Of a DNA stretch of 55,049 bases, positions 1 through 47,780 are shown one piece after another (the stretch's first letter is position 1; each line of letters begins with the position of its first letter). Source of the stretch: Nanobdellota archaeon (GTDB lineage: Archaea; Nanobdellota; Nanobdellia; Woesearchaeales; CAZZGN01). The position numbers and the translations under genes are program-made. Under the pieces are notes generated by a model. The model was not told where the DNA came from. It did no database searches and worked only from the letters and a program-made list of their open reading frames with translations. The stretch lies in NCBI GenBank assembly GCA_051819665.1, contig JBNJDG010000004.1, positions 1 to 55,049 on the forward strand. Direction: 5' to 3'.

Positions 1-183
1 CGGATTCACTGGTTCATCCTTGAGTTACTCGCTTTCGGCTCGTAACAATCCGAGCAGGGCTATCTTTTTTTCTCTCTAAGGCTTGATAGATCATCTCGAA
101 TCGGATTTGAACATCTTCGGATTCACTGGTTCATCCTTGAGTTACTCGCTTTCAGCTCGTAACAATCCGAGCAGGGCTATCTT
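1..183. repeat. Direct repeat: 66-nt copies at 1-66 and 118-183 (period 117 nt), structured and REP-like
   Basis: The copies differ at one position only (G37/A154). Internal inverted repeats are cggatt/aatccg and gttac/gtaac. The first copy is cut by the window edge. Confidence 0.9.
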
Positions 184-1208
184 ATCTCTTCCTTTATGAG
201 CTTCATCATCTCATCAAGGTCATCATAGTCAACACTCGCGAAACAGACCCTTATGAATCCGTCGAAAGCTGCAACTCCGAGGCCTTTCTCGAGAAGTTTC
301 TTCCTTACAGCCTCGCTGTCCTTTGTCCTTACGCAGAAGAAGAATCCAGAGTTGAAAGGTAGGGTATCAAGGTCTTTCGCGAGCTCTTTCACCTTCCTGT
401 ATTTCTTCTCGACCGGAGAATAATCGGGTTCCTCATCAAGTATTTTCAGGGCCATATTCTGGGTGATGTTCGATATGCTGGATACGGTCTGCCTTACTAC
501 TGCAGCAGCCTTGTCCATAAGTTTCTCCCCGTCATGACTCACGCTCAGGAAACCAATCCTAAGGCCCCATGCGAAATATTCTTTGGTCATCCCATCAGCT
601 TTAACGACAAGGTTATTCTTTTTAAGATCATGATAAAGAGATTGCTTGTATGTATTATCGAAGAACAAGCCTTCATAAGCATCATCAAGGATAACAGTCT
701 TGCCTTTGACTATTCCTTTGATCTTCTCTGCCTGCTCATTCCCGAGTGAATAGCCTGTCGGGTTATGAGGGTAATTGAAGAGCACTACATCCGATTTGTC
801 AATGACCTGTCTTAATGATTCGGGATCCAGAGGATCATATTCATAGATCTCCTTTTCTTCGAAGATAAGGTCGTAATTTTCCCATCTTGGCTTAGGGAGT
901 ATTATGCTTTCCCTGCAGAACAATCTTCCGGCTATATGAATTGCGTGTGTTATTCCATTGGTGACTATGGGCAGGGAATCCAGGCGTTTCTTTTCCTTCC
1001 ATCTTTCCCTCAGCTTTTTTAGGCCGTGAGTGGGGGCATAACCTATCTCTTCCCCGAATCCTTCTAAGGGTCCGGAGGTAAGGAAACTGTGGTTCTCTTT
1101 CGCTACACCTGCTGTAGCATTGATCCTTGAGTTCTTCGCTTCCTGTGCCTGCCCGATAACGCCTTTCTTTGGGAATACGATCCTCTTTCCGAAATCAGAG
1201 AGTCTCAT
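177..1208 (-). CDS. PLP-dependent aminotransferase, class I/II
   Basis: Motifs NYPHNPTG, ILDDAY and the PLP lysine in GMTKEYFAWGLRIG; C-terminal IRVCF. Confidence 0.9.
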   Translation of the reverse strand: MRLSDFGKRIVFPKKGVIGQAQEAKNSRINATAGVAKENHSFLTSGPLEGFGEEIGYAPTHGLKKLRERWKEKKRLDSLPIVTNGITHAIHIAGRLFCRESIILPKPRWENYDLIFEEKEIYEYDPLDPESLRQVIDKSDVVLFNYPHNPTGYSLGNEQAEKIKGIVKGKTVILDDAYEGLFFDNTYKQSLYHDLKKNNLVVKADGMTKEYFAWGLRIGFLSVSHDGEKLMDKAAAVVRQTVSSISNITQNMALKILDEEPDYSPVEKKYRKVKELAKDLDTLPFNSGFFFCVRTKDSEAVRKKLLEKGLGVAAFDGFIRVCFASVDYDDLDEMMKLIKEEIR

Positions 1209-1327
1209 AAGCTTTAATATTCCAGTCTATTATTAAAATCTTGCCTCTTTTTCCCTTGGGATTAATATAATTCATCGAACAGAACACAGAAAAATTTATA
1301 ACTGAGCAGTAGTCTCTAGGTTAAGGC

Positions 1328-1831
1328 ATGAAAAAGGAACAAGATAATACTCTGGAACCTGATTATGTTGTGCTTCCCATAAAGGAATATAGATTATTGA
1401 GGCGTGTCACTGAGGAGAATGAATCATGTATAAACTGGGTAACACATAGGGGCAGGAAGTTTCCCGGAAAACAGGAAAAAGCTGAGAACGATTTCTTTTA
1501 TAATCCTGATGTGAAGTATTTATTTTTCCAGGATAAGTCTTCTGAGAAACAGGGTTATGCCAGGATATTCAGGGATATAGAGAATAATGGTTGGGTAGAT
1601 GGAATATTCGGGGAGGGACCTTTTGGTATCCAGGATATAGTGGAGCCTCTGAAAGGGCATTTTGATAAGATGTTTGATGGCAGCCCTTACGTAATCAATA
1701 GTCCTGAATTCATCGATCTTCAGGAATACAGGAAGGAACTCAGGATGAAGGAAGAACCCCGTTACTCTTTCAGGTTCAAGGCAGACAAGGAGTATATCCT
1801 GAAGGATCTCTTCTCCGGATATAAAGGTTGA
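1328..1831 (+). CDS. Hypothetical protein, paralog of 11668-12159 (SCI...NPDV...GYxRxF...GWxDxI family)
   Basis: TATA-like AAATTTATAA upstream; clear by-eye alignment to the 11668 ORF. Confidence 0.8.
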   Translation: MKKEQDNTLEPDYVVLPIKEYRLLRRVTEENESCINWVTHRGRKFPGKQEKAENDFFYNPDVKYLFFQDKSSEKQGYARIFRDIENNGWVDGIFGEGPFGIQDIVEPLKGHFDKMFDGSPYVINSPEFIDLQEYRKELRMKEEPRYSFRFKADKEYILKDLFSGYKG

Positions 1832-3058
1832 TCAATACCTCTTTTTCTTTTTCTTCTTGATCATGATCAACAGCAGTAAGATAACGACTATTATCGCGAT
1901 GTATATCAAGGCGCTGGAAGACTGCTCGGAAGATTCTTTCCTGGAAGCTTCTTTGTTTGTCCCGTTATATTCGACATCTGACGGATTCACATTTATTACA
2001 TTTGATTTCTCGAAGCTCTGCTTATCCTCGTAATATATCCTTCCTTTGACCTTATATCTGCCCGGTTTCTCAGGGGAGAAAGTCATAGGTATCTCTCCGG
2101 TCTCACTGCTTTCGATCTCCATATTACCGGATTCAAGGTTCTTGACAACTTTATTATCTAGCATTATATCTCCTTTGAATACTGCAGAAACATCTTTCTC
2201 ACCAGTGTTCTTGAAGATAGGTTTTACTTCTATATCATCACCCACATTGTTCCATACCTTGTTCTTTATCTGTACAAGCTTTCCTGAGACGCTCATTGCT
2301 CCTGGTTCCAGGACATCAAAGGTCATCGTGTCCTCAAAACCGCAGGGTTCTACCGAGACATCTGCGAAATACTGGCCTATGTCGAGATCATCGGTGCTTA
2401 ATGATGTAGTGAATTCTTTCCTCAGAGTAGGTCCTATCTCGGTCTTATTCTTCCTGACCGTCTTGACGATCTCACTCTGATCCTTGTTCCAGACATCTAT
2501 CTCCACTTCGGGATTGAGCCAGACATTCCCATAGTTGATGGTCCTGAAATCGAAGTCAATCTCATTGCCCATCTCTGCGTTCTCTACATTCGAGGACAGA
2601 ACCTGGCAGTCTACTATCTCGTCATCGGAGATCTCTATGCTAAGCCTTGAAGCTACAGCTGTCTCTATTATAGCACTTGTCTGTCCTTCGAAATCCCTGT
2701 CCATATCTATCCTGAATCTCATGAGGGTCTTGTATACACCATTGGGTACATCTGCGGGAGGTTCTACTATGACGGTCATACGCTGGGGATTACCTTCTGA
2801 GATATTGAAGCTTGTAACATTGGGCTCAAAGGAGATCCAGTCGTTAGCAGTGGCATTGTGCTTTAGAGACCTCCTGATAGTCAGTTGTTCGTCTGTGGAA
2901 GTGGATACCCTGAAATCCCTTTCAGCATACCCGTTCCTGAGAAGATCAGTCATGTTTATGTTGACCGGATTGATTGCCAGCCCGATGGCCATAGCATTAT
3001 TGACGAGCAAAATCAGAAAAACCGCGTATATCAATATTTTCATGTTCATTTTTTCCAC
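1832..3058 (-). CDS. Secreted, C-terminally membrane-anchored multi-Ig-domain protein; PapD/DUF916(WxLIP)-like chaperone candidate
   Basis: Signal peptide ending AMA. N-domain pattern INPxxI...WISFEP...VIVEPPADVPNGVY. Two further Ig-like domains with NxG(N/E) and GxY motifs. C-terminal TM helix followed by KKKKKKRY. The CDS is secure; the family call is by pattern. Confidence 0.75.
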   Translation of the reverse strand: MEKMNMKILIYAVFLILLVNNAMAIGLAINPVNINMTDLLRNGYAERDFRVSTSTDEQLTIRRSLKHNATANDWISFEPNVTSFNISEGNPQRMTVIVEPPADVPNGVYKTLMRFRIDMDRDFEGQTSAIIETAVASRLSIEISDDEIVDCQVLSSNVENAEMGNEIDFDFRTINYGNVWLNPEVEIDVWNKDQSEIVKTVRKNKTEIGPTLRKEFTTSLSTDDLDIGQYFADVSVEPCGFEDTMTFDVLEPGAMSVSGKLVQIKNKVWNNVGDDIEVKPIFKNTGEKDVSAVFKGDIMLDNKVVKNLESGNMEIESSETGEIPMTFSPEKPGRYKVKGRIYYEDKQSFEKSNVINVNPSDVEYNGTNKEASRKESSEQSSSALIYIAIIVVILLLLIMIKKKKKKRY

Positions 3059-3090
3059 TCTTTTTTATCTGATTTAAATTATTTTCTGTT

Positions 3091-3984
3091 CTATGATGAT
3101 ACTGCGCCGAAATAGACTTTTCCTGTGCATGCTCCCAGTGCGCCTGATTCGGGGACATGAAGCCTCCAGTATATCAGGTCTGAGGTAGGAGGGGAATCAT
3201 TCCCAGTAGCCTTAGTAAGGTTCTCGTCGAGGATGACCGTGCCTCCGCTTCCGACCATTGAGGTTCCTGTAAGCGTACCTCCTGTATCGGAGCTTGCGTT
3301 TATGTTCTCTGCAGGGATCGAGCCTGAATCACAATCCATTGCCTCAGTGTCTGAAGTTCCTGTAGAAGAGTCATTGTATACATCAAGTTCAGTGTCTATC
3401 TCTACGTTCCCTTCATTTTCATATGTGGAGCTTTTCTCATTTGAGGTCTCCCCGACTCCTATTTCCCCAAAATCTATAAGCAGGCTGTCGGGAATATCTA
3501 TAGCAAGAAGCTCGTTCATGGTGGCATTGTCATCCTCGCTTGCATTACTGTTACCGTCAATATCTGTTGCATTTATCCTGCAGTGCCATTCTCCCGGTTC
3601 AGCGTAGAACTCAACATCAGGGAAGAGGCATTCGGCTTCTCCTGAAGCGCTTTCGTATGTACAGTCGGGGTTTGAATAATGGAAATCGTCCTGATCACCA
3701 TCTCCGAGATAACTGCTTGGTCCGTATATCTCTGCAGATACATTATCTATGTCGCTGTTGCCGTTAGGATCAGTAACATCCGCCGAGCAGTTGAGAAGTG
3801 TCTCTGTTCCGGCAGTGAGGTCCATCTCATTATCTCCTCTAATGTCATCATTCAGCTCTACATTGGAGACGTTCGGGACAGAGGTTATATTGACCTGTGT
3901 ATCCCCTGTTTCAGACTGGTCCGAGAAAGCGGAATAACTGCATAATACAAACAGGACCACTATCATCAACCATACATTCCTCAA
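3091..3984 (-). CDS. Secreted acidic six-Cys surface-protein paralog 1 (putative fibre/pilin-like subunit)
   Basis: TTG start with GAGGTG SD; signal peptide; ADVTDPNG, FPDVEFYAEPGEWHC, IDFG, NEGN, MDC and WxLxVP..GxCxGxVxFGA motifs shared with four neighbours. Confidence 0.85.
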   Translation of the reverse strand: MRNVWLMIVVLFVLCSYSAFSDQSETGDTQVNITSVPNVSNVELNDDIRGDNEMDLTAGTETLLNCSADVTDPNGNSDIDNVSAEIYGPSSYLGDGDQDDFHYSNPDCTYESASGEAECLFPDVEFYAEPGEWHCRINATDIDGNSNASEDDNATMNELLAIDIPDSLLIDFGEIGVGETSNEKSSTYENEGNVEIDTELDVYNDSSTGTSDTEAMDCDSGSIPAENINASSDTGGTLTGTSMVGSGGTVILDENLTKATGNDSPPTSDLIYWRLHVPESGALGACTGKVYFGAVSS

Positions 3985-4085
3985 CGCTCTGCACCTCTTT
4001 TATTTAAGCTTGTATAGTTGATACGGCCTTTGGCATTAAAAAATCTTTTGTTTTGTATTTATAAAGAAAGGTTAAAGGGTTATTT

Positions 4086-4976
4086 TCAGTATGGCAATGC
4101 TCCTAAAAGTATATGGCCGGTGCAGTTACCTCCTGCGCCGTATGGTACCTCAGCTTCCCACCATACGTCACCTGTTGTAGGCGGTTGATCGTCTCCCGTG
4201 GCTTCAGCAATAGCAGTGCTTAACTCTCTTGTATCTGATGGGCTATCGCCGTACATTGATGTTGAGATATCATATTCGCTGACACCTGCACTGAAGAAAC
4301 CTGCGCTGATATCTCCAATATCACAGTCCATGCCGTGATAATCCCAGATTGAATTGTTGAATACATCTACTTCAGTATTAATACCTATATTGCCTACGTT
4401 CTTGAATTCTGTGGATTTCGGGTCTGAGACATCATTCACCTGAACATAACCGAAATCAAGTACAAGATCGTCCTGTACGTCTATAGCGGCCAGTTCAACC
4501 ATGGTTGCAGAGTCATTCTCTGTAGAGTTCTCATTACCTCCAAAGTCAGTTGCATTAATCTGGCAGTGCCATTCTCCCGGCTCAGCATAGAACTCAACAT
4601 CGGGGAAATTACATGTCGCATCTCCATAAGCACTATCATAATCACAGCTCGAGTTCGTATAATGCCAGTCATCAAAATCATTGTCCCCAAAGTAACTGCT
4701 CGGCCCGTATATCTCTGCTGAGACGTTCTTTATATCGTCATTACCGTTCGGATCGGTCACGTCCGCATAACAGTAGAAGGTAGTCTCATTCCCTGCTTCG
4801 GGTGCCAGTTCCTCAGAAGGTGTTTCGCCATCTCTGAGTCGGACATACTCTACATCCGGTGCTTCGTTCTTCACCTGTACAGTTGTATTACCTTCTTCCT
4901 CGTTAGGGAATTGAGCGAGAGCAGAGCAACTCATGAGGATAAACATTACAATGACCAATACTCCTGTCTTTTTCAT
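4086..4976 (-). CDS. Secreted six-Cys surface-protein paralog 2
   Basis: Same motif set. ATG at 4976 (MKKTG) preferred over TTG at 4982. Confidence 0.85.
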   Translation of the reverse strand: MKKTGVLVIVMFILMSCSALAQFPNEEEGNTTVQVKNEAPDVEYVRLRDGETPSEELAPEAGNETTFYCYADVTDPNGNDDIKNVSAEIYGPSSYFGDNDFDDWHYTNSSCDYDSAYGDATCNFPDVEFYAEPGEWHCQINATDFGGNENSTENDSATMVELAAIDVQDDLVLDFGYVQVNDVSDPKSTEFKNVGNIGINTEVDVFNNSIWDYHGMDCDIGDISAGFFSAGVSEYDISTSMYGDSPSDTRELSTAIAEATGDDQPPTTGDVWWEAEVPYGAGGNCTGHILLGALPY

Positions 4977-5009
4977 GAACAAATCTGCCTCTTTTTTTGT
5001 TATCTTAAT

Positions 5010-5888
5010 TTAAGGTGTCATCGCACCGAAAAGCACCTTACCGTTACATCTACCCAGTGCTCCTGAGCTTGGGACTTTCAGATTCCACCATATTGTGTCT
5101 GTTGGCGGATCCTGGTCATCTAAAATGGGTGGAGAAAGACTCGTTGTGATTGTCTCCGTACCGGTTGCTGCCATTGATACACCTGATGTTAAACCACTTT
5201 CTGTTTCACTTGCGTTTATGCTCTCAGCCGGGAGAGTTCCCGAATCACAGTCCATAGAGTCGCTATCGTTTATATCTGAGTTCTTGTAGACATCGAGTTC
5301 AACATCAAGATCTACATTACCCTCGTTCTCGAATACTGTGGACTTAGCATCAGAGACTCTGCCGGTATATACATTTCCGAAATCTATCAATAGAGAGTCA
5401 GAGATGTTTATAGCAGCCAGTTCCAACACTGTCGCATTGTCTTTCTCACTGTCGTTAACGTTTATATTGTAGTCACTCGCATTTATCTGGCAGTGCCATT
5501 CTCCCGGTTCAGTATAGAACTCAATGTTCGGGAAAGTGCATGTTGCATCTCCATATTCACTGTCATAATCGCAGCTCGAGTTCGTATAATGATATTTGGT
5601 ACCGTCGTAGTCACCAAAATAGCTGCTCGGACCATAGAGTTCTGCTGCAACTTTTCTTATATCAGCATTCCCATCCGGATCAGTCACGTCCGCATAGCAG
5701 GTGAATGTAGTATCTTTTCCCGCCTCAAGCGTCAGCTCGTCTTCAGGTAATGAGCCGTCCCTGAGTCGGACATTCGACACATCCGGTGTAGAACTGTTTA
5801 TACCCAAAGTAGCGTTCCTTTCATCTCCGAGGACTGCGGAACTCATCAGGATTATGAATACAATTATCAGTATTCCAGTCTTTTTCAT
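5010..5888 (-). CDS. Secreted six-Cys surface-protein paralog 3
   Basis: Same motif set; signal peptide MKKTGILIIV...AVLG. Confidence 0.85.
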   Translation of the reverse strand: MKKTGILIIVFIILMSSAVLGDERNATLGINSSTPDVSNVRLRDGSLPEDELTLEAGKDTTFTCYADVTDPDGNADIRKVAAELYGPSSYFGDYDGTKYHYTNSSCDYDSEYGDATCTFPNIEFYTEPGEWHCQINASDYNINVNDSEKDNATVLELAAINISDSLLIDFGNVYTGRVSDAKSTVFENEGNVDLDVELDVYKNSDINDSDSMDCDSGTLPAESINASETESGLTSGVSMAATGTETITTSLSPPILDDQDPPTDTIWWNLKVPSSGALGRCNGKVLFGAMTP

Positions 5889-5974
5889 GATCTGTACCCG
5901 CCTCTTTTTTTGTAAAAATCTATCTCTCTTTATTTTTTAGGCTTTTAGTTCCCTTTTATGTATATTATCGGGAT

Positions 5975-5998
5975 TGTCATTTATATATCTTTTGGAAA
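5975..5998 (-). promoter_or_regulatory. BRE/TATA promoter for paralog 3; related copies at ~7104-7126 (paralog 4) and ~8271-8294 (paralog 5)
   Basis: Minus-strand CCAAAAGATATATAAATGACAA, conserved upstream of three paralogs. Confidence 0.6.
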
Positions 5999-6108
5999 TT
6001 AGGGTCTACTGGCCTTTAGGAAAAGGTGTTCCGGGTATTTTCACTACTATAAAATTCATTGAATCTTATTTTGCTTGAAGGTCCTGTTTACAGAAAATGA
6101 ATGAAGAA

Positions 6109-6141
6109 AAAGAAAAAAATCAAAAAGGCATTCATGCCTTT
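6109..6141 (-). terminator. Hairpin plus T-rich tail after paralog 4 (identical hairpin at 7253-7270 after paralog 5)
   Basis: AAAGGCA-TGAA-TGCCTTT overlapping the stop codon, followed by T-tracts on the minus strand. Confidence 0.6.
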
Positions 6142-7018
6142 AGTTTATTGGTACTGCGCCGACAAGCGCTTTGCCGTTACAGGTACCTGCTACACCAGAG
6201 CTGGGTACTTTCAGTTCCCAGGCTATATTTTCATTAGGTGGTGGTGCATCATTTCCGCTAGCTTCATAAAGTTCTATGGTAATTCTTGCAGTTCCTGTCT
6301 CCACCATAGAGGTTTCTCCAGATGATGCACTTACGTTGATGTTGCCTGTGGGGATGGTTCCTGTATCACAATCCATTGCATCACTGTCATTAATTCCTGT
6401 AGCAGAGTCGTTGTAAACGTCGTTCTCAAGATCAATAGCTATGTTTCCTATGTTGAAGAATTCCATTCCCTGGAATCCAGAGACATCACCAACACCAACA
6501 TCACCGAAGTCGATAAGGAGAGAATCTGAGATGTCTACAGCAGCCAGCTCAAGCAGAGTTGCATTATCTCTCTCAGTAGCGTTCTTATTACCATCCTCAT
6601 CGGTTGCGTTTAACTGACAGTGCCATTCTCCCGGTTCAGCGTAGAACTCAACATCCGGGAACGTGCACTTTGCAGTTCCTGTTGCCTTGTCGTAAATGCA
6701 ACTATCGGAGTAATGGTGGTCGTCTTGATCATAGTCTCCGTAGTAACTGGTCGGCCCGTAGATTTCTGCTGAGACGAACAATATATCATCATTACCGTTC
6801 GGATCGGTCACGTCTGCTGTACAGTTGAAAGTAGTCTCGTTGCCTGCTTCAAGCTCCAGCTCGTTATCTCCTTTTGTGCCGTCATGGAGCACAATGTTCG
6901 TTACGTCTGGTGCTTCGTTCTTCACCTGCATTGTAGTGTCTCCCTCCTCCTCGTTTGCAAGGACGGAGAAGCTCATCAGTATCATCATCCCTATTATTAA
7001 AATCCCAATCTTTTTCAT
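6140..7018 (-). CDS. Secreted six-Cys surface-protein paralog 4
   Basis: Same motif set; closest to paralog 5. ATG at 7018. Confidence 0.85.
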   Translation of the reverse strand: MKKIGILIIGMMILMSFSVLANEEEGDTTMQVKNEAPDVTNIVLHDGTKGDNELELEAGNETTFNCTADVTDPNGNDDILFVSAEIYGPTSYYGDYDQDDHHYSDSCIYDKATGTAKCTFPDVEFYAEPGEWHCQLNATDEDGNKNATERDNATLLELAAVDISDSLLIDFGDVGVGDVSGFQGMEFFNIGNIAIDLENDVYNDSATGINDSDAMDCDTGTIPTGNINVSASSGETSMVETGTARITIELYEASGNDAPPPNENIAWELKVPSSGVAGTCNGKALVGAVPIN

Positions 7019-7349
7019 GATCAAATCCCGCCTCTTTTTTTTAAAAACCTATTTCTCTTTATTTTTTAGGCTTTTAGTTCCCTTTTATGTATATTATCAG
7101 AATTGTCTTTTATATATCTTTTGGAAATTAGGGTCTACTGGCCTTTAGGGAAAGGTGTTCTGGGCATTTTCACTACTATAAAATTCATTGAATCTTATCT
7201 TGCTTGAAGGTCCTGTTTACAGAAAATGAATGAAGAATAAGAAAAAAATCAAAAAGGCATTCATGCCTTTAGTTTGCTGGTACTGCGCCGAAAAGCACTT
7301 TACCGTTACAGGTACCTGCTACATTAGAGCTAGGAACTTTCAGGTTCCA
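7011..7349. repeat. Copy B of the intergenic direct repeat
   Basis: Matches 5881-6220. Confidence 0.9.
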
Positions 7350-8162
7350 GTATAAGTCACCTGCACTTGGTGTCTGGTCATCTCCGGTAGCTTCAGCAAG
7401 GCTTGTGGCCATTGTCACAGTTCCTGACTCTACCATCGATGTACCTGAACCTAGGTTACCAGTTGTTGTACTTGCGTTGATGTTGTCTACAGGGATGGTT
7501 CCTGAGTCACACTCCATTGCATCAGCGTCAGAAGTTCCTGTAACAGAGTCGTTGTAAACGTCGTTCTCAACATCAAGAGCTATATTACCTGTGTTATTGA
7601 AGTTTGTCGTCTGTTCTCCAGAGACGTCACCAACACCAACATCGCCGAAGTCGATCAGTAGGTCGTTTGAGATGTCTATAGCAGCCAGATCAAGCAGAGT
7701 TGCATTGTCTGTCTCTGTAGCGTTCTCATTACCAGCATAATCGGTTGCGTTTATCTGGCAGTGCCATTCTCCCGGTTCAGCGTAGAACTCAACATCGGGG
7801 AACATGCAGTGTGCAGTTCCTGCTCCGCTGTCGTAACTGCAACTTGAATTGGTGTAATGGTAGTCGTCGAAATCCGTGTCTCCGAATGAACTGCTCGGAC
7901 CGTAGATTTCAGCTGAGACGAACTCTATATCATCATTACCATTAGGATCAGTCACGTCTGCTGTGCAGTTGAAAGTCGTCTCGGCGCCTGCTTCAAGCTC
8001 CAGCTCGTCGTCTCCTGTTGTGTTGTCGTAGAGATGAACGTTCGTTACATCCGGTCTCGCGCTGGTGATGTTCACCGTAGTGTCTCCTTCCTCAGTGTTT
8101 GCAAGGACGGAGAGACTCATCAGTATCATCATCCCTATTATTAAAATTCCAATCTTTTTCAT
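7269..8162 (-). CDS. Secreted six-Cys surface-protein paralog 5 (first in the array, probable major subunit)
   Basis: Same motif set; strongest SD in the array (AGGAGGTGTGAT at 8180-8169); ATG at 8162. Confidence 0.85.
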   Translation of the reverse strand: MKKIGILIIGMMILMSLSVLANTEEGDTTVNITSARPDVTNVHLYDNTTGDDELELEAGAETTFNCTADVTDPNGNDDIEFVSAEIYGPSSSFGDTDFDDYHYTNSSCSYDSGAGTAHCMFPDVEFYAEPGEWHCQINATDYAGNENATETDNATLLDLAAIDISNDLLIDFGDVGVGDVSGEQTTNFNNTGNIALDVENDVYNDSVTGTSDADAMECDSGTIPVDNINASTTTGNLGSGTSMVESGTVTMATSLAEATGDDQTPSAGDLYWNLKVPSSNVAGTCNGKVLFGAVPAN

Positions 8163-8405
8163 AATCAAATCACACCTCCTTTTTTTGTGTAAAAGTCACT
8201 ATAAGTTACTATATTCAGGTTTCTTTATTGTAATCTTGCTCTTAGTAGTGTTTTAAGTATATTATATGTGTTGTCATTAATATATTTTTTGGAATATCGG
8301 GGTAAAACAATCATCTGAGAATATTTTCTTTGTTTTTTAACTACTTCCAAGTGCATAAAAACATTCAAAAAACATGCGTTGAAGAAATAATGCAAAAGAG
8401 AAATA

Positions 8406-11400
8406 ATGAAGCTAAAAAGTGTAGTAGTGGTATTTGTATTTATATTCTCGATTTCTTTAGCTTCTGCTGGCTCATCCTTACAGACCTCTCTCACGCCCGA
8501 CGAAGCGGATATGTGCGGGGGGCCTGATCCTGATACGCTTAATATGACAGCAGAGGTGACGAATGATGGTACTGAAAATCTGTCTTCTGTCGATGCAGAG
8601 CTTGTTATCGGTAGCGGGACAGGTATCTCCGTAAACACCTCCAATCCTCTCTCTCTGGGAGACATGGACACGGGCAACAGCACGACAGTCAACTGGACCA
8701 TCTCCTGTGATGAGAGCCAGTCCGGTGACCATGTGCTTTATCTTAACTATTCCACAGCCGGAAGTTATAGCAATACTTCGATAGAAGAGAATGATGAGTT
8801 CAGCGAGATCACAGTCAATACTTGTGAGACGCCCGTAGTGGAGGATATGGAGCCTTCAGGAACAGTCACGAGGAATGATGTGGAGCTTAAGGTTAATACT
8901 GACATGAAGGCTGACTGCAGGTATGATGATGAGAATGTAAGTTACAGCATTATGACAGGCAGGCTTAACGGTTCAGATGAGGAATATACTGATACACAGT
9001 CGCTTGAGGAAGGGGATCATGAGTTTTATGTCAGCTGTGAGAACGGTTATTCATCATGCTCTGACACGATGGATGATCCTGAAAAGCTCTATTTCGAAGT
9101 TGATACTAACTCGCCTGAAATTTTGAGCTCTTCACCGACCGGCGAAGTGTCTGAGTCATTCACTCTTGAGGTCGAAACGAACGAGAACGCTACGTGCAGG
9201 TACAGCAGCTCAAGCGGAGAAGATTATGGCGAGATGGAGAAGACAATGGACTCTGTAGATTCATTGGATCATAAACAGGACATGTCCATCACTTCTGACG
9301 GGTCTTATACTTATTATGTGAAGTGCAAGGACAATCACGGTAATGAGGCAGCTTCGGACCATGCAATAAGTTTCACAGTTGACAGCTCTCCTGTCGCTGA
9401 AATCACTCTAAGTGATCATCCTCCTGTAAATCCGGGTGTTATCCAGGTGGATCTTGTTACGTCTGAGAAGGTTGTGTCCGCTCCAAAACTGACTTATGAG
9501 CTCCATGATGATGAGGATGAGGACAATCCTACGAGGACTGTTCCTCTGAGCGGTTCGGGAAGGTTCTGGGAAGGCGAGATGATAATCTATGAGGATGATC
9601 TCCATAAGGTCGGAGAGTTCAGTTATTCAGCGACTGATTATTCAGGTAATGTAGGTAATTCCATATCCTCAGGAAAATCTTTCCTTGTTGATACTCTTGA
9701 TCCGGAGGAGATCTCTGAGTTTGAAGGGGAATCAAGGGAAGATGGATCTATCAAGCTGGAATGGTATAACGATGATGACGAGAACTCTTATTTCAATATC
9801 TACAGGGCTACAGTATCGGATGTGGACAAGCTGGATCATTATGCGGAGAGTACTGATGAGGATTTCGAGGATCAGTCAACGGAATTGGGCGAGGAGTATT
9901 ATTACAGGGTAAGCTCTGTAGATACTGCAGGTAATGAAGGAGAGCTTTCGGAGACGATATCTGTGGTATCCAAGGCAGAGAATGAAACAGAGGTGAGTTC
10001 TTCAACAGGTCTTGATTCTGAGTATGTCCCTCTCGTGGATGAAAGGATAGAGAGGATCAATGAGCTGTTAATAGACCTTGAGAACGAGGCCAGTTCCTTT
10101 AATGAGGGGGAGAATAAGGATCTTGCGGAGACAGTTGATTTAAGCAGCGAAGTGGAGAGCATAAGGGAAGAATTGAAGAAGTATAAAGGAAAAGTCAAGG
10201 AACTCAAGGATGAGGATCTTTCGAAGAGCGAGCTTGATCTGGAGCTCAATAAACTTGATATGAAGATTGATACTTCAGAGAAGAACATTCCCGAGAGCAT
10301 TGAGCTTGTTCAGGAGATGGATAAAGAGAGCTCTCCTACTTCGAGTGATGTGAAAGAAGCTGCTAATGATCTTATCAATCTGAAGAGGATGACCAATATA
10401 GATGAAGATGTTAAAGAAAAGTATATAAAAAATAACCAGGAGTTTCAGTCTGATTATGAGGTGGGTACTAATCTCCAGAAGATAGAGGTTGAGTATCTTG
10501 GCGGTTCCTCCAAGGAGATAATCAATGTGGAGAAATCTATTAAAGGGAATCCGGGAGAGGGTTATTCATTAGTGGAGAAGATACCTAAAGAGTTGGCTTC
10601 TAAAGTTGATAATATTGAATTCGGCAATGAGAATTATGATATCATCAAGAGGGATCCTAAGGTGAGGTGGGTCCTGGAGGATGTTCCCGATAACAGCCTT
10701 TCTTATTATGTCGAGAGTGAGGAGGACCTTTCTTCTATAGGAGGCATAAAATCTATGATAATGGAAGATATCAATGATTATGTCGAGACTAATACTTCAG
10801 ATGAAGAGAATAAGACTGATTCTCCTGAAGAGGAATCTTCCGGATTCCTTGATAAGATCATGTCATGGGAGATAAATTCATCACAGATCGGCATAATCAT
10901 AGGTGTGCTCCTTATCATCGGTCTTAGCGTATATTATTTCTTCTATCTTGACCAGGATGATAATACAGGCAGGAAGAAAGAGGAGATGCTTAATGGTTAT
11001 GTCTCCCAGAAGGAGGCAGGAAAGAGAGAAAATCAGAGGAATGTACAACCTGTACACAATGATCCAGGGCCTGGAAAAGAGCAACAGAATCAGGGTATGC
11101 TCCAGGAGGAGATAAATGAGCTTTACAATCAGCTCCAGGTTACCAATATAAGGAATCTTCTTCAGGAAGCTCATATGAAGATTGATAAGGGAAGGAACAA
11201 AGAGGCTGAGAAGCTCATGGATGAGATCCTGGTCCTTTATAAGTATCTGCCGGAGAAACAGAAGCATATCGTGAGTTCTGAGACAGAGGAATTATCCAAC
11301 AGGCTGGACAGGAAAGGGAATAATGGGGAAACAGAACAGGTCTCTGGTACCAGGCCTCTCCAGTTTGTAAATGGGGCTATAGCTTCGGATCTGTTGCAGC

Positions 11401-11600
11401 TTCTTGTCATGATAGATAATATGGAAGAGGATGTCTTCAGGTATCATGTTAATCAATACCGTAATGATATAGGTGAGTGGGTGGGTAATTCTATGGGGAA
11501 GAAAGAATTGTCCAGGATATTGATGAGGCTGGATGACAGGGAAGAGATGGAAAGGGTTCTCCTGAATTATCTTAAATCCGAAAGGCTTAATCAGGGATGA
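8406..11600 (+). CDS. Large membrane-anchored surface protein with Ig-like/FnIII domains, coiled coil, TM helix and a cytoplasmic DUF5752-like C-terminal domain
   Basis: Signal peptide; two LxVxTxxxAxCRY repeats; FnIII-like LEW..FNIYR..YYYRVSSVDTAGNEG; TM IGIIIGVLLIIGLSVYYFFY; C-terminal FVNG..SDL..L...M...VFRYHVN..RNDIGEWV. Confidence 0.85.
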   Translation: MKLKSVVVVFVFIFSISLASAGSSLQTSLTPDEADMCGGPDPDTLNMTAEVTNDGTENLSSVDAELVIGSGTGISVNTSNPLSLGDMDTGNSTTVNWTISCDESQSGDHVLYLNYSTAGSYSNTSIEENDEFSEITVNTCETPVVEDMEPSGTVTRNDVELKVNTDMKADCRYDDENVSYSIMTGRLNGSDEEYTDTQSLEEGDHEFYVSCENGYSSCSDTMDDPEKLYFEVDTNSPEILSSSPTGEVSESFTLEVETNENATCRYSSSSGEDYGEMEKTMDSVDSLDHKQDMSITSDGSYTYYVKCKDNHGNEAASDHAISFTVDSSPVAEITLSDHPPVNPGVIQVDLVTSEKVVSAPKLTYELHDDEDEDNPTRTVPLSGSGRFWEGEMIIYEDDLHKVGEFSYSATDYSGNVGNSISSGKSFLVDTLDPEEISEFEGESREDGSIKLEWYNDDDENSYFNIYRATVSDVDKLDHYAESTDEDFEDQSTELGEEYYYRVSSVDTAGNEGELSETISVVSKAENETEVSSSTGLDSEYVPLVDERIERINELLIDLENEASSFNEGENKDLAETVDLSSEVESIREELKKYKGKVKELKDEDLSKSELDLELNKLDMKIDTSEKNIPESIELVQEMDKESSPTSSDVKEAANDLINLKRMTNIDEDVKEKYIKNNQEFQSDYEVGTNLQKIEVEYLGGSSKEIINVEKSIKGNPGEGYSLVEKIPKELASKVDNIEFGNENYDIIKRDPKVRWVLEDVPDNSLSYYVESEEDLSSIGGIKSMIMEDINDYVETNTSDEENKTDSPEEESSGFLDKIMSWEINSSQIGIIIGVLLIIGLSVYYFFYLDQDDNTGRKKEEMLNGYVSQKEAGKRENQRNVQPVHNDPGPGKEQQNQGMLQEEINELYNQLQVTNIRNLLQEAHMKIDKGRNKEAEKLMDEILVLYKYLPEKQKHIVSSETEELSNRLDRKGNNGETEQVSGTRPLQFVNGAIASDLLQLLVMIDNMEEDVFRYHVNQYRNDIGEWVGNSMGKKELSRILMRLDDREEMERVLLNYLKSERLNQG

Positions 11601-11667
11601 TTTCTGTAGCCTTTCTGCATGTTGTTCTTTCAGAAAAATATTTAATCTGTTGCATTTACCCAGCCTT

Positions 11668-12159
11668 ATGTTTAAGGAAAGTATAGACAGTAATCAATTG
11701 AAGTATATCATTGAGCCTTTGCAGGACCTGGATTCTCTGAGGGAGCTGACTTTCCGGAATGCTTCGTGCATAAACAGAGAAACTTACATAGGGATGCGTT
11801 CTCCCGAAAAACAGGAGAAGGCTGAACATGATTTTTTACATAATCCTGATGTCCTGTATTTGTCCATTAAGAAGGAAGATTCTGAAAGTAAAGGTTATAT
11901 GAGACTTTTCAGAGACAGTGAAGGCTGTGGGTGGCTTGATAATATAACTCCTTTCACAACTTACCATGTTCTTGGAACCAAGGATAGTATGAAGGATATC
12001 TTTAATGGTCTTTATGTCAGACTATCTTCAGGTCTCAACGGAGATTTTTATGCTGGTCTCCCTGATATGAAAAAGCAGCTCTGGATGGAGAACGAACCAG
12101 TGTATCATCATCGTTTTTCCCTGGGTAAAGATTATCATATTGTGGACATCCTGAAGTGA
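11668..12159 (+). CDS. Hypothetical protein, paralog of 1328-1831
   Basis: SCINRETYIG..PEKQEKAEHDFLHNPDV..GYMRLFRD..GWLDNI aligns with the 1328 ORF; ATG ~22 nt after a TATA-like TATTTAA. Confidence 0.8.
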   Translation: MFKESIDSNQLKYIIEPLQDLDSLRELTFRNASCINRETYIGMRSPEKQEKAEHDFLHNPDVLYLSIKKEDSESKGYMRLFRDSEGCGWLDNITPFTTYHVLGTKDSMKDIFNGLYVRLSSGLNGDFYAGLPDMKKQLWMENEPVYHHRFSLGKDYHIVDILK

Positions 12160-12211
12160 AAGTTCTTGGTAGTCCCAAATATATTTAAATGAGTTTTATA
12201 TCCATAGCTAT

Positions 12212-47757: not shown

Positions 47758-47780
47758 ACAGTAGAATTTTCAATATGGAT

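What the first reader, a model, noticed from the sequence alone, without database searches (positions are those of the whole stretch)
1832..8180. Candidate undescribed archaeal chaperone-assisted surface fibre system: five Ig-fold subunits plus a membrane-anchored chaperone
Seen: five tandem co-oriented ~295-aa secreted, very acidic paralogs. Each has six invariant Cys and many NxS/T sequons, but no TM anchor and no class III (prepilin) signal. Each mature chain starts with a short beta-strand (e.g. EEGDTTVNIT). Two domains follow, ending in WxLxVP..GxCxGxVxFGA. The last gene is a 408-aa protein with a PapD/DUF916-like first domain, two more Ig-like domains, a TM helix and a poly-Lys tail. Known: chaperone-usher pilins of CS1/Csu type end in a VP..GxYxGxxx strand and polymerise by donor-strand complementation, and Firmicute WxL clusters pair unanchored subunits with a DUF916-DUF3324-TM protein. 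Inference: this is an usher-less, non-type-IV filament or surface lattice that a DPANN cell could use for host attachment.
Basis: partly seen in the sequence, partly recalled or inferred. Interest (0 to 1): 0.85.

Follow-up and report, generated by a model that had tools for sequence, protein, structure and literature searches.

The report
Archaeal WxL-like chaperone and fibre genes
A tiny salt-lake archaeon carries five copies of a new secreted surface protein next to a membrane-anchored relative of the chaperone that builds the recently described WxL pili of Gram-positive bacteria. This suggests, but does not yet prove, that such pili also exist in Archaea.

Summary
There are five tandem minus-strand paralogs of 292-299 aa. 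Each is secreted and very acidic, with six invariant Cys. A 408-aa protein follows, with a signal peptide, three domains, a TM helix and a poly-Lys tail.

The pair is a conserved cassette. In a 400-genome sample of the phylum, both families are strongly present in 52 genomes, and only one of them in 5. In 27 of 57 places the TM gene lies directly downstream of a subunit-type gene. In relatives the same about 270-aa module also ends long proteins of 602-4699 aa. The usual gene order is short, long, TM.

The TM protein is a remote but specific homologue of Firmicute WxLIP/ElrE (DUF916-DUF3324-TM). An October 2026 preprint shows ElrE to be a membrane-anchored donor-strand chaperone and reports the system as confined to Bacillota. 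The subunits have no detectable homology to WxL, Pfam or PDB entries.

In four metatranscriptomes from one study, contigs over copy 1 are about 20-100 times deeper than those over its neighbours.

My best reading, at about 0.5, is an archaeal counterpart of the chaperone-guided donor-strand pilus. The main rival is a static membrane-docked surface complex.

The parts
7269..8168 (-). Subunit copy 1, the candidate major subunit. Layout: signal peptide, conserved N-terminal strand, Cys-rich domain 1, domain 2.
   Evidence: RNA-library contigs over 7246-8234 have word depth 400-1300 (X1, X2) against 0-38 for every other bin in 1-12500. This is contig depth from one study and is only a hint.
6140..7024 (-). 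Subunit copy 2
   Evidence: 71% identical to copy 1. Followed by the same hairpin plus T-run as copy 1.
5010..5888 (-). Subunit copy 3
   Evidence: 60% identical to copy 1.
4086..4982 (-). Subunit copy 4
   Evidence: 59% identical to copy 1. Its N-terminal segment is 88% identical to copy 2, against 58% over the whole mature chain.
3091..3984 (-). Subunit copy 5. It ends 32 bp before the 408-aa gene.
   Evidence: One RNA-library contig (2793-3421) spans the junction with the 408-aa gene.
1832..3058 (-). 408-aa membrane-anchored WxLIP-like protein, the candidate chaperone and/or anchor.
   Evidence: Family of 1207 representatives at E<=1e-3. Co-occurs with and lies next to the subunit family. 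WxLIP ectodomain HMM against this protein gives E=2.2e-4 in a set of 191. Pfam WxLIP_HBD scores 16.3 bits, below the 28.9-bit cut-off.
8055..8099 (-). Copy 1 mature N-terminus, NTEEGDTTVNITSAR. This is the candidate donor strand.
   Evidence: The motif NVTVxTxVN[IV]TN precedes an invariant Pro in nearly all short homologues. It is mostly not kept in the 12 long proteins examined. Its role is inferred.
7272..7355 (-). Copy 1 C-terminal hairpin, YWxLxVP..GxCxGxVxFGA.
   Evidence: Most conserved segment of the family. The same V.VP..G.K..F.A ending occurs in partner proteins of related archaeal loci.
2618..2986 (-). 408-aa protein, domain 1 (aa 25-147). It ends in a long amphipathic strand.
   Evidence: Domain 1 against the B-family domain 1: 96.5%. 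B-family domain 1 against DUF916 (PGBD): 94.3%. The direct comparison of domain 1 with PGBD gives 1.4%. Hydrophobic residues alternate across 40 homologues.
1964..2617 (-). 408-aa protein, domains 2 and 3. These are DUF3324/CARDB-like Ig domains and look like an internal duplication.
   Evidence: Domain 2 against domain 3: 90.5%. Domain 2 against HBD: 70%. Domain 3 against HBD: 41%. CARDB/ASH hits in relatives fall in domain 3. The domain 3 end is approximate.
1835..1912 (-). TM helix (aa 383-400) and KKKKKKRY tail of the 408-aa protein.
7253..7270 (-). Hairpin followed by a T-run, directly after the copy 1 stop codon.
   Evidence: RNA-library contigs over copy 1 end at 7246-7279. This is a consensus match only.
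6124..6141 (-). Identical hairpin plus T-run after the copy 2 stop codon.
8169..8405 (.). Divergent intergenic region between copy 1 and the 1064-aa gene. It contains A/T-rich TATA-like stretches and GGAGGTG before the copy 1 start.
   Evidence: read by eye. One RNA-library contig reaches 8234.
8406..11600 (+). 1064-aa type I membrane protein. Layout: signal peptide, Ig-like domains, charged helical region, TM at aa 828-848, 216-aa cytoplasmic tail. It is a likely fourth component.
   Evidence: Homologues at E<=1.4e-37 occur in 52 places in the sample, and 37 of these lie within 10 kb of a listed subunit or TM-protein match (counted by hand).

Best explanation
The locus encodes an archaeal counterpart of the chaperone-guided donor-strand-exchange pilus of Firmicutes (the WxL/Elr system).

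Proposed mechanism:
1. The six proteins are exported by the Sec pathway.
2. The 408-aa protein stays in the membrane through its C-terminal helix. With its DUF916-like first domain it binds the C-terminal domain of each newly exported subunit.
3. Subunits then join head to tail. The conserved N-terminal strand of one subunit inserts into the preceding one.
4. The fibre stays tethered to the membrane protein, because the organism has no cell wall and no sortase step is expected.
5. Copy 1 is the major subunit and copies 2-5 are minor or variant subunits.
6. In related genomes, long proteins of up to 4699 aa carry the same module at their C-terminus and would be tip or inserted adhesins. This genome has none, so its version is tipless.
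7. The divergently encoded 1064-aa membrane protein is a further conserved partner of unknown role.

Shown: the cassette, its conservation, the homology of the membrane protein to WxLIP, the C-terminal position of the module, and the depth excess over copy 1.

Inferred: binding, strand donation, polymerisation, and any role in attachment.
For: 1. Phyletic link. HMMs of the two families were run on the same 400 other genomes. Strong subunit hits (E<=1.4e-40) occur in 54 genomes and strong TM-protein hits (E<=2.3e-60) in 55. Both occur in 52, subunit only in 2 (one of these has a TM-protein match cut by a contig end), TM protein only in 3, and neither in 343. Related genomes are not independent.

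2. Synteny. There are 57 strong TM-protein places. In 27 the gene lies directly downstream of a module gene on the same strand, with a gap of at most 320 nt. In 5 one gene lies between. In 2 the TM gene comes first. One is fused. Three lie within 3.5 kb in another orientation. Two sit at contig edges. For 17 no module gene is listed nearby.

3. Architecture matches WxL loci. The module sits at the extreme C-terminus of long proteins of 602-4699 aa. Of the 12 fetched loci that hold both families, 5 show the full order short, long, TM. The payload regions are unannotated in 7 of the 9 long proteins scanned.

4. Natural fusions. P0162 and L029 consist of payload, module, then domains 2-3 and the TM helix of the membrane protein. 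L030 has domains 1-2 followed by the module.

5. Homology of the membrane protein to WxLIP, with TM helices removed. The archaeal B family against the 408-aa family gives 98.7%, E 4e-16, over 304 columns. B against the Firmicute WxLIP ectodomain gives 97.7%, E 1.6e-12, over 205 colinear columns. Domain 1 matches only PGBD and domains 2 and 3 match only HBD. The WxLIP ectodomain HMM hits 53 of 172 stored family members at E<=1e-3, with a best E of 8.7e-12. Among 846 ORFs from the archaeal loci it hits 13, all within the 53 A3/B-family ORFs, and none of the other 793.

6. Function of the bacterial homologue. ElrE is reported to be a membrane-anchored chaperone that complements the subunit fold and nucleates a donor-strand-exchanged ElrD fibre (preprint sections 7 and 8).

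7. Candidate donor strand. The N-terminal strand motif is the most conserved part of short subunits and is largely not kept in long ones.

8. Expression hint. RNA-library contigs over copy 1 are about 20-100 times deeper than those over the TM-protein gene in 4 runs of one study, and a hairpin plus T-run follows copy 1. This fits a polymer made from a major subunit better than a 1:1 complex.
Against: - No structural test was possible. The subunit fold, any open groove, strand insertion and the chaperone interface are all unseen.
- The subunits show no detectable homology to WxL. hhalign gives 8% and 0.3-0.5% per domain. Pfam WxL matches 0 of 37 members.
- From the sequence pattern, domain 2 looks like a full sandwich ending in a two-strand hairpin, not an obviously truncated fold. 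This is my reading by eye.
- The N-terminal strand could simply be the first strand of domain 1, acting within the same chain. About 5 of the 12 long proteins have a similar-looking strand in front of the module.
- The window's own protein misses both Pfam cut-offs. Its domain 1 does not match DUF916 directly (1.4%; PGBD HMM E=4.5).
- The B alignment has only 8 rows, chosen because they hit PF11797. Only its match of domain 1 to PGBD is free of that choice.
- For 17 of 57 TM-protein genes no module gene was listed nearby. In one family of genomes the gene sits beside an SRP54-like gene instead.
- The tool states that contig depth cannot rank genes. All four runs come from one study, and DNA may be present in RNA libraries.
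Confidence: 0.5

Rival explanations
1. A static, membrane-docked surface complex. The 408-aa protein is a permanent anchor that holds the C-terminal module of short and long secreted proteins on a wall-less cell. No polymer forms. This was the model held for WxL clusters before 2026.
For: - The co-occurrence, adjacency and fusions fit this model equally well.
- In the P0162/L029 fusion the module is tied for good to domains 2-3 and the TM helix.
- The module ends giant proteins of up to 4699 aa that look like displayed adhesins.
- Hassan et al. 2023 proposed exactly this platform for WxLIP (PMC10599100; abstract and section 2 read).
Against: - The bacterial homologue has since been reported to be an assembly chaperone and not a fixed platform.
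- Five payload-free short paralogs have no obvious purpose in a pure docking model.
- The depth excess of copy 1 over the anchor gene argues against 1:1 stoichiometry (a weak hint).
- The short-specific conserved N-terminal strand is left unexplained.
Confidence: 0.25
2. A two-dimensional surface lattice similar to an S-layer. Copy 1 would be the abundant canopy protein. The 408-aa and 1064-aa membrane proteins would be its stalks or anchors. Long module-bearing proteins would be inserted into the lattice.
For: - Copy 1 contigs are very deep in RNA libraries.
- The subunits are acidic, sequon-rich, secreted and lack an anchor.
- The 1064-aa partner has Ig domains, a charged helical region and a TM helix. 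This recalls S-layer stalk proteins, a comparison made from memory.
Against: - The distribution is patchy. Strong hits occur in only 54 of 400 genomes that are at least 90% complete, and in 7 of 10 genomes of one genus. That is unlike an essential envelope layer.
- There are several paralogs per genome.
- The homologous bacterial machinery builds a fibre.
Confidence: 0.12
3. Unrelated surface Ig-domain proteins that are merely neighbours. On this view the WxLIP similarity is generic Ig-fold resemblance and there is no shared function.
For: - All Pfam hits of the window's proteins are below cut-off.
- Ig-like domains readily give weak profile matches. The first 95% hhalign score was inflated by the TM helix and Lys tail.
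Against: - Both families are present in 52 genomes and only one in 5.
- There are 27 direct adjacencies and natural fusions.
- The WxLIP HMM hits 0 of 793 non-family ORFs, although many of these are Ig-rich.
- Matches are domain-specific.
Confidence: 0.03

Closest known systems
WxL/Elr pilus of Enterococcus faecalis and other Bacillota (ElrE = DUF916-DUF3324-TM chaperone; ElrD/ElrC = WxL pilins; ElrA = tip adhesin). Source: bioRxiv 10.64898/2026.10.17.759780 (abstract and sections 7, 8, 12-15 and 52 read).
   Same: - A membrane-anchored Ig-domain protein with a C-terminal TM helix and a basic tail, homologous in its ectodomain.
- It is encoded next to short secreted subunits and, in relatives, next to long proteins that carry the same module at their C-terminus with a variable and mostly unannotated payload.
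- Short subunits have a conserved N-terminal strand.
- There is no usher.
- Tipless operons exist in both.
   Different: - The host is an archaeon. The preprint found the system only in Bacillota, among 4,698 genera.
- The subunit is a two-domain, six-Cys family with no detectable WxL homology.
- The membrane protein has a third Ig domain and misses the Pfam cut-offs.
- No sortase or LPxTG step is expected in a wall-less archaeon. I did not search for one.
- There is an extra conserved 1064-aa membrane partner.
- Polymerisation has not been shown here.
Classical and archaic chaperone-usher pili (Pap/Fim, Csu, CS1). Details are as described in the preprint; the rest is recalled.
   Same: - The proposed logic is the same: an Ig-like chaperone caps an Ig-like subunit, which then polymerises through an N-terminal donor strand.
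- Adhesins carry the pilin module at their C-terminus.
- There is one highly expressed major subunit gene.
   Different: - There is no PapD_N or usher match (the usher was not searched for genome-wide).
- The chaperone is membrane-anchored and not periplasmic.
- There is no outer membrane.
Archaeal donor-strand filaments that need no chaperone: Sulfolobus threads (PMC9715654), Pyrobaculum bundling pili (PMC9245690), Pyrodictium cannulae (PMC12518558), and haloarchaeal Tat-dependent pili/tafi (PMC12337348, PMC11821415). Only the search listing and the starts of abstracts were seen.
   Same: - They are archaeal, are not type IV pili, and are glycosylated extracellular filaments built by strand donation.
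- This shows the principle already operates in Archaea.
   Different: - Those filaments are described as chaperone-free.
- Subunit profiles from this locus match none of the solved chains.
- Here a dedicated membrane protein co-occurs with the subunits.
WxLIP 'static platform' model (Hassan, Chaudhuri and Williamson 2023, PMC10599100; abstract and Results part 1 read).
   Same: - A DUF916-DUF3324-TM protein is proposed to bind and stabilise its neighbouring small and large partner proteins.
- The most common cluster has one WxLIP and two partners.
   Different: - That model relies on peptidoglycan binding, which cannot apply to this archaeon.
- It has been revised by the 2026 preprint.

Membership tests
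WxL/Elr chaperone-pilin system (criteria of bioRxiv 10.64898/2026.10.17.759780, section 52) | A chaperone of 150-800 aa carrying both PF06030 (WxLIP_PGBD) and PF11797 (WxLIP_HBD) above their gathering thresholds. | tested here: not met
   The 408-aa protein scores 16.3 bits on PF11797 against a 28.9-bit cut-off, and has no PF06030 hit. PF06030 has no match anywhere in the genome. PF11797 matches 1 of 40 family members at E<=0.1.
WxL/Elr chaperone-pilin system | The membrane protein is homologous to the DUF916-DUF3324 ectodomain (remote homology, TM helix excluded). | tested here: met
   hhalign of B against WxLIP gives 97.7%, E 1.6e-12. B against the 408-aa family gives 98.7%. The WxLIP ectodomain HMM hits 53 of 172 family members at E<=1e-3 and 0 of 793 non-family ORFs. 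The window's own protein scores E=2.2e-4. For this protein the DUF916 part is linked only through the B family.
WxL/Elr chaperone-pilin system | The chaperone has a C-terminal TM helix (96.7% of WxL chaperones). | tested here: met
   A hydrophobic helix at aa 383-400 followed by KKKKKKRY. The feature is conserved in the family consensus.
WxL/Elr chaperone-pilin system | The pilin carries a WxL domain (PF13731). | tested here: not met
   The window copies have no hit at E<=1. Among short homologues 0 of 37 match. hhalign against an alignment of 39 WxL proteins gives 8% and 0.3-0.5% per domain.
WxL/Elr chaperone-pilin system | Chaperone and pilin genes lie within 10 kb, with long adhesins carrying the pilin module at their C-terminus. 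| tested here: met
   In the window the gap is 32 bp. Across relatives, 27 of 57 places show direct adjacency. The module is C-terminal in all 13 long proteins examined. No long form was found in this genome.
WxL/Elr chaperone-pilin system | An N-terminal donor strand on the pilin that inserts into the neighbouring subunit, and donor-strand complementation by the chaperone. | not testable with these tools
WxL/Elr chaperone-pilin system | An LPxTG terminator subunit and sortase anchoring. This feature is optional in the preprint's definition. | not tested
   No search was made. The weak LPXTG_anchor hits on the 408-aa protein cover only its TM helix and basic tail.
Classical chaperone-usher pili | A PapD-like chaperone (PF00345) and an outer-membrane usher. 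| tested here: not met
   No PapD_N hit on any of the six proteins at E<=1. The usher was not searched for. An archaeon has no outer membrane (established knowledge).
Type IV pilins / archaeal class III signal proteins | A short charged N-terminus, a [KR][GA] cut site, and a conserved hydrophobic mature N-terminus. | tested here: not met
   By eye. The signal peptides end in AxA-like sites and the conserved mature N-terminus is polar (NVTVxTxVNITN). The motif is recalled and no dedicated predictor was run.
Known archaeal donor-strand filaments (threads, ABP/TasA-like, cannulae, tafi) | Sequence relationship to their solved subunits. | tested here: not met
   Subunit profiles were searched against all PDB chain sequences. 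The best hit was Hydin, at E=0.034 and 0.42. No Peptidase_M73/TasA hit appeared in Pfam. A comparison of folds could not be made.

The most novel reading that the evidence does not exclude
Chaperone-guided donor-strand-exchange pili are not confined to Bacillota. DPANN archaea build a homologous usher-less fibre using a WxLIP-type membrane chaperone and a new six-Cys, two-domain pilin family. Giant C-terminally tagged adhesins, of up to 4699 aa in relatives, ride on the fibre. It is tethered directly to the membrane and is used to hold on to host cells. The chaperone family, including the wider B family that reaches the Pfam cut-off in 9 of 391 genomes, would then either predate the split of the two domains of life or record a transfer between Firmicutes and archaea.
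Probability: 0.4. Interest if true: 0.9.

Novelty: new variant of a known kind. Interest (0 to 1): 0.75.

Why it matters
- DPANN archaea live attached to host cells, yet little is known about how they attach. None of the 12 papers listed by my one search on DPANN surface structures describes a system of this kind.
- The only experimentally defined relative of the membrane protein was published weeks ago as a new pilus pathway 'confined to the Bacillota'. That screen used Pfam cut-offs on RefSeq proteomes.
- The same machinery component is found here in about one in eight genomes of an archaeal phylum sample. It is paired with a new subunit family and with giant proteins that carry the subunit module.
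- This makes several questions directly testable:
  - Do Archaea have chaperone-assisted pili?
  - How old is the pathway?
  - Which proteins mediate DPANN-host contact?
- It also gives names and a working hypothesis to more than a thousand 'hypothetical' protein clusters.

Tried and rejected
**Structure and complex prediction.** No statement about folds in this report rests on a model.

**Direct family searches.** Pfam and NCBIfam gave nothing above cut-off on the six proteins. PDB sequence searches with three profiles found nothing useful.

**The word-based protein search** found only 13 subunit relatives. That made the family look much rarer than the HMM genome search showed, which found matches in 122 of 401 genomes.

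**An inflated first score.** The first profile comparison of the 408-aa family with WxLIP gave 95%. I rejected it as inflated by the TM helix and Lys tail. Without these it fell to 58%. The link was accepted only after I found the intermediate B family and ran the specificity control.

**Rejected domain relationships**:
- subunit domain 1 or domain 2 against domains 1, 2 or 3 of the membrane protein (at most 16%)
- subunit against DUF916 or DUF3324
- subunit domain 1 against subunit domain 2

**PapD-clan idea rejected.** The ASH/CARDB hits of relatives fall in domain 3 and not in domain 1. They therefore do not support a PapD-clan first domain.

**Uninformative searches.** The names of relatives were all 'hypothetical protein', from Woesearchaeota or Nanoarchaeota MAGs and one 'bacterium' MAG.

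**Genes not found in this genome.**
- The roughly 240-aa neighbour family seen in other genomes was not found with one query.
- A long module-bearing protein was not found here either. The genome is 96% complete.

**RNA coverage.** Parts of the locus without RNA-library cover in runs X3 and X4 are not evidence of silence.

**Supplementary files** of the two WxL papers were closed. Table S5 of PMC10599100 and the SI of the preprint may list DUF916/DUF3324 proteins outside Bacillota that I could not see.

**Unpublished genomes.** G243, G244 and G396 contribute only weak matches to the tallies 122/401, 193/401 and 98/401. None of them is in the strong sets or in any fetched locus.

Full report
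**1. What is there**

Window 1832-8180 holds six co-oriented minus-strand genes.
- Five are paralogs of 292-299 aa, 58-71% identical to copy 1. They share six invariant Cys and an invariant C-terminal W..VP..G.C.G....GA.
- They have ordinary signal peptides, pI about 4.05, K+R of 1.7-5.5% and 8-11 sequons each.
- The sixth gene (1832-3058) encodes a 408-aa protein with a signal peptide, about 355 aa of ectodomain, a TM helix at aa 383-400 and a KKKKKKRY tail.
- A sixth, solitary paralog lies on another contig of the same genome. That genome has 1.12 Mb in 64 contigs and is 96% complete. The 408-aa gene is single-copy.
- The surrounding genes are archaeal housekeeping genes: wyosine synthesis, a class II aminoacyl-tRNA synthetase and a Ski2-type helicase.
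- Named relatives of the 408-aa protein come from Woesearchaeota and Nanoarchaeota MAGs.

**2. No known family by direct search**

- Pfam and NCBIfam give nothing above cut-off for any of the six proteins.
- The best lead was WxLIP_HBD (DUF3324) on the 408-aa protein, at E=0.0097 and 16.3 bits against a 28.9-bit cut-off.
- Profiles of both families find no solved structure by sequence.

**3. The two families form a conserved cassette**

*Family sizes.*
- The 408-aa family is large, with 1207 cluster representatives at E<=1e-3 and 167 at 1e-30.
- The subunit family looked tiny in the word-based search, with 13 proteins. An HMM run over 401 genomes of the phylum finds it in 122.

*Co-occurrence.* The 408-family HMM run on the same genomes gives 193 of 401 at E<=1e-5. 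Only the strong hits separate cleanly from the rest:

| Category (of 400 other genomes) | Genomes |
|---|---|
| Strong subunit hits (E<=1.4e-40; next best 1e-24) | 54 |
| Strong 408-family hits (E<=2.3e-60) | 55 |
| Both | 52 |
| Subunit only (one has a 408-family match cut by a contig end) | 2 |
| 408-family only | 3 |
| Neither | 343 |

Related genomes are not independent, so this table is descriptive and not a statistical test.

*Adjacency.* I counted the 57 strong 408-family places by hand against the listed subunit matches. Because 86 matches were not listed, the counts of adjacency are lower bounds.

| Arrangement | Places |
|---|---|
| Directly downstream of a subunit-type gene, same strand, gap of at most 320 nt | 27 |
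| One gene in between | 5 |
| TM-protein gene first | 2 |
| Fused | 1 |
| Within 3.5 kb, other orientation | 3 |
| At a contig edge | 2 |
| No subunit-type gene listed nearby | 17 |

Of the 17, six come from one family of genomes in which the gene sits beside an SRP54-like gene. That name is my reading of the N-terminal sequence.

**4. The subunit is also a C-terminal module**

- In 20 fetched loci the roughly 270-aa module always lies at the very end of its protein. This holds for long proteins of 602, 685, 711, 760, 839, 928, 1069, 1078, 1334, 2090, 4152 and 4699 aa.
- The commonest gene order is a short protein of about 310 aa, then a long protein, then the TM protein.
- The N-terminal payload regions have no Pfam match in 7 of the 9 long proteins scanned.
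- Two natural fusions exist. One joins payload, module, and domains 2-3 plus the TM helix (L029; also P0162, recorded on three contigs under two NCBI accessions). The other joins domains 1-2 to the module (L030).
- This genome has only short forms.

**5. The same blueprint was just described in bacteria**

- A literature search found Sleutel et al., bioRxiv 10.64898/2026.10.17.759780, dated 17 October 2026.
- Its claims: the Enterococcus elr/WxL cluster builds a pilus. ElrD polymerises by donor-strand exchange. [quoted passage not shown] Long proteins carry the WxL module at their C-terminus as adhesins. Tipless operons are common. The system was detected only in Bacillota, among 4,698 genera, using Pfam gathering thresholds on RefSeq proteomes.
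- Earlier work had read the same clusters as a static platform (PMC10599100).

**6. Is the 408-aa protein a WxLIP homologue?**

*Reference alignments.* I collected 68 Bacillota loci using the published WxLIP motif. From them I built alignments of 28 WxLIP proteins (A5) and 39 WxL proteins (A6). Pfam confirmed the identity of five samples.

*Direct comparison.*
- The 408-aa family against WxLIP gave 95%. This was driven by the TM helix and Lys tail.
- With ectodomains alone the score was 58%. Domain 2 against HBD gave 70%, domain 3 against HBD 41%, and domain 1 against PGBD 1.4%.

*The intermediate B family.*
- Running PF11797 over 391 genomes of the phylum gave matches at E<=0.01 in 95 and over the Pfam cut-off in 9.
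- These matches lie in a second set of proteins of about 380-410 aa with the same layout of signal peptide, three domains, TM helix and basic tail. I call this the B family.
- Six of the 8 scanned exceed the PF11797 cut-off.

*Comparisons with TM helices removed.*

| Comparison | Probability | E-value | Columns |
|---|---|---|---|
| B vs 408-aa family | 98.7% | 4e-16 | 304 |
| B vs WxLIP ectodomain | 97.7% | 1.6e-12 | 205, colinear |
| B domain 1 vs PGBD | 94.3% | 1.1e-7 | 75 |
| B domain 1 vs 408-family domain 1 | 96.5% | 7.3e-10 | 106 |
| B domain 2 vs HBD | 95.9% | 5.1e-9 | 96 |
| B domain 3 vs HBD | 95.2% | 2.5e-8 | 83 |
| Cross-pairs (domain 1 vs HBD; domains 2, 3 vs PGBD) | at most 1% | 0.054-0.096 | 21-57 |

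*Direct HMM test and specificity control.*
- An HMM of the TM-less WxLIP ectodomain hits 53 of 172 stored members of the 408-aa family at E<=1e-3. The best E is 8.7e-12, and the window's own protein scores 2.2e-4.
- Among 846 ORFs from the archaeal loci it hits 13. All 13 lie within the 53 A3/B-family ORFs, and none of the other 793 is hit.

*Conclusion.* The 408-aa protein is a remote but genuine WxLIP relative. Domains 2 and 3 are duplicated DUF3324-type domains. Domain 1 is related to DUF916 only through the intermediate family.

*Caveat.* The B alignment has 8 rows that were picked because they hit PF11797. Only the match of domain 1 to PGBD is free of that choice.

**7. The subunits are a new family**

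- They show no WxL signal. Pfam matches 0 of 37 members. hhalign gives 8% and 0.3-0.5% per domain.
- Domain 2 is homologous to the partner proteins of the B-type loci (94%, E 1.4e-7). These partners are short proteins of 186-215 aa and the C-termini of 558-1000-aa proteins. All end in V.VP..G.K..F.A, and all are encoded right before a B-type membrane protein in the six loci examined.
- A client followed by a WxLIP-like membrane protein is therefore a general theme in this phylum. The window's six-Cys two-domain subunit is one branch of it.

**8. Hints on mechanism**

- *Candidate donor strand.* In the short proteins compared (31 rows of under 400 aa), the 14 residues before an invariant Pro follow NVTVxTxVN[IV]TN, with about four looser cases. 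This is the most conserved stretch of the family. In the 12 long proteins the motif is absent, although about five have a loosely similar strand there. This fits a donor strand needed only by polymerising subunits, but a strand acting within the same chain is not excluded.
- *Chaperone strand.* Domain 1 of the membrane protein ends in a hairpin whose last strand shows strict hydrophobic alternation across 40 homologues. It sits where ElrE's donor strand lies. This is only consistent with the model, because many sandwich strands look like this.
- *Expression.* Four metatranscriptome runs, all from one study and labelled salt lake metagenome, hold the locus.
  - Contigs over copy 1 (7246-8234) have word depths of 410-865 in X1, 595-1325 in X2, 19-49 in X3 and 27-71 in X4.
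  - Every other bin in 1-12500 has a depth of 0-38.
  - A hairpin plus T-run follows the stop codons of copy 1 and copy 2.
  - The tool warns that contig depth cannot rank genes and that DNA may be present in RNA libraries. DNA could not produce a step of this kind within one locus, but I treat it as a hint of a highly expressed major subunit and nothing more.

**9. A wider cluster**

- The divergent 1064-aa gene (8406-11600) encodes a type I membrane protein with Ig-like domains, a charged helical stretch, a TM helix at aa 828-848 and a 216-aa tail.
- Its homologues at E<=1.4e-37 occur in 52 places. Of these, 37 lie within 10 kb of a listed subunit or TM-protein match, often directly upstream of a short subunit gene.
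- Other genomes add two further families. One is a pair of secreted proteins of about 240 aa ending in TTYYFY[VI]EL. The other is a Cys-repeat TM protein of about 360-400 aa. Neither was found next to this cluster.

**10. Verdict**

*Solid:*
- The cassette is real and conserved.
- Its membrane component belongs to the WxLIP/ElrE superfamily.

*Inferred:*
- That the component acts as a donor-strand chaperone, and that the subunits form a fibre. This rests on homology to one very recent, not yet peer-reviewed study and on architectural parallels.

*Not tested:*

*My weights:*

| Reading | Weight |
|---|---|
| Chaperone-assisted donor-strand fibre | about 0.5 |
| Static membrane-docked complex | about 0.25 |
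| Lattice | about 0.12 |
| Other, including mere neighbours (0.03) | the rest |

*Prior description.* Four full-text searches and term look-ups in the two WxL papers found no description of DUF916/DUF3324-type systems in Archaea. The supplements were closed.

Noticed in passing
window 8406-11600 (+): The 1064-aa type I membrane protein encoded divergently from copy 1 belongs to a family that travels with the cassette. Of 52 strong places, 37 lie within 10 kb of a listed subunit or TM-protein match. In genomes where the TM-protein gene lies elsewhere, this gene sits directly upstream of a short subunit gene. Its role is unknown.
   Followed up: partly
window 1328-1831 (+) and 11650-12159 (+): Two paralogous genes of about 168 aa (36% identity over 162 aa, E 9e-35) with no family match bracket the whole surface-protein cluster in the same orientation. 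The cluster may have been inserted or duplicated as an island.
   Followed up: partly
loci L131-L136 (genomes G147, G276, G209, G170, G364, G375): A second archaeal family of proteins of about 380-410 aa with a signal peptide, three Ig domains and a TM helix reaches the Pfam WxLIP_HBD cut-off. This holds for 9 of 391 genomes and for 6 of the 8 proteins scanned. Each gene is preceded by short or long proteins ending in V.VP..G.K..F.A. Some short partners have N-termini that could be class III (prepilin-like) signals. I did not check this.
   Followed up: partly
control genomes: PF06030 matched in Methanosarcina acetivorans and Thermotoga maritima. PF11797 matched in Methanocaldococcus jannaschii, besides Lactococcus lactis. 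DUF916/DUF3324-like domains may therefore be wider in Archaea than the Bacillota-only picture suggests.
   Followed up: no
L036 283-1751, L037 2673-4403, L038 1605-3341, L041 170-952, L116 2055-2798, L117 7159-7911, L118 6878-7627: A secreted family of about 240 aa ending in TTYYFY[VI]EL, often as a tandem pair, lies directly upstream of short subunit genes in several genomes. It was not found in this genome with one query.
   Followed up: partly
L116 8408-9661, L117 3367-4515, L118 1275-2177, L119 5792-6823, L120 3011-4258, L127 3376-4614; window 46186-47769 (-): A membrane-anchored family of about 360-400 aa has an N-terminal Ig-like domain and 6-9 Cys repeats (NHxCxxLxCxxDE). It sits between the long-protein gene and the TM-protein gene in five genomes. 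A 528-aa frame far away in the window shows weak similarity to it (best E 1.6e-8).
   Followed up: partly
window 7253-7270 and 6124-6141 (-): Identical 18-nt hairpins followed by TTGATTTTTT come directly after the stop codons of copies 1 and 2. The duplication unit therefore included the 3' flank.
   Followed up: partly
window 8055-8099, 6911-6955 region and 4860-4910 region (-): The N-terminal segments of copies 2 and 4 are 88% identical although the mature proteins are 58% identical. Copies 1 and 5 share a second type of segment. This may reflect gene conversion or a constraint on the strand.
   Followed up: partly
one search matches in G117, G366, G173, G206 (TAA) and G240, G265, G057 (TGA): Several otherwise full-length 408-family genes in other genomes contain a single in-frame stop codon. 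In L043 the gene is split into frames of 229 and 176 aa. Pseudogenes, sequencing errors or recoding were not told apart.
   Followed up: no
L031, L034, L044-L047 (one family of genomes): Where the 408-family gene is not next to a subunit gene, it lies beside a gene whose product begins like SRP54 (read by eye), in most of these loci head to head. This could be a link to the export machinery or mere synteny.
   Followed up: no
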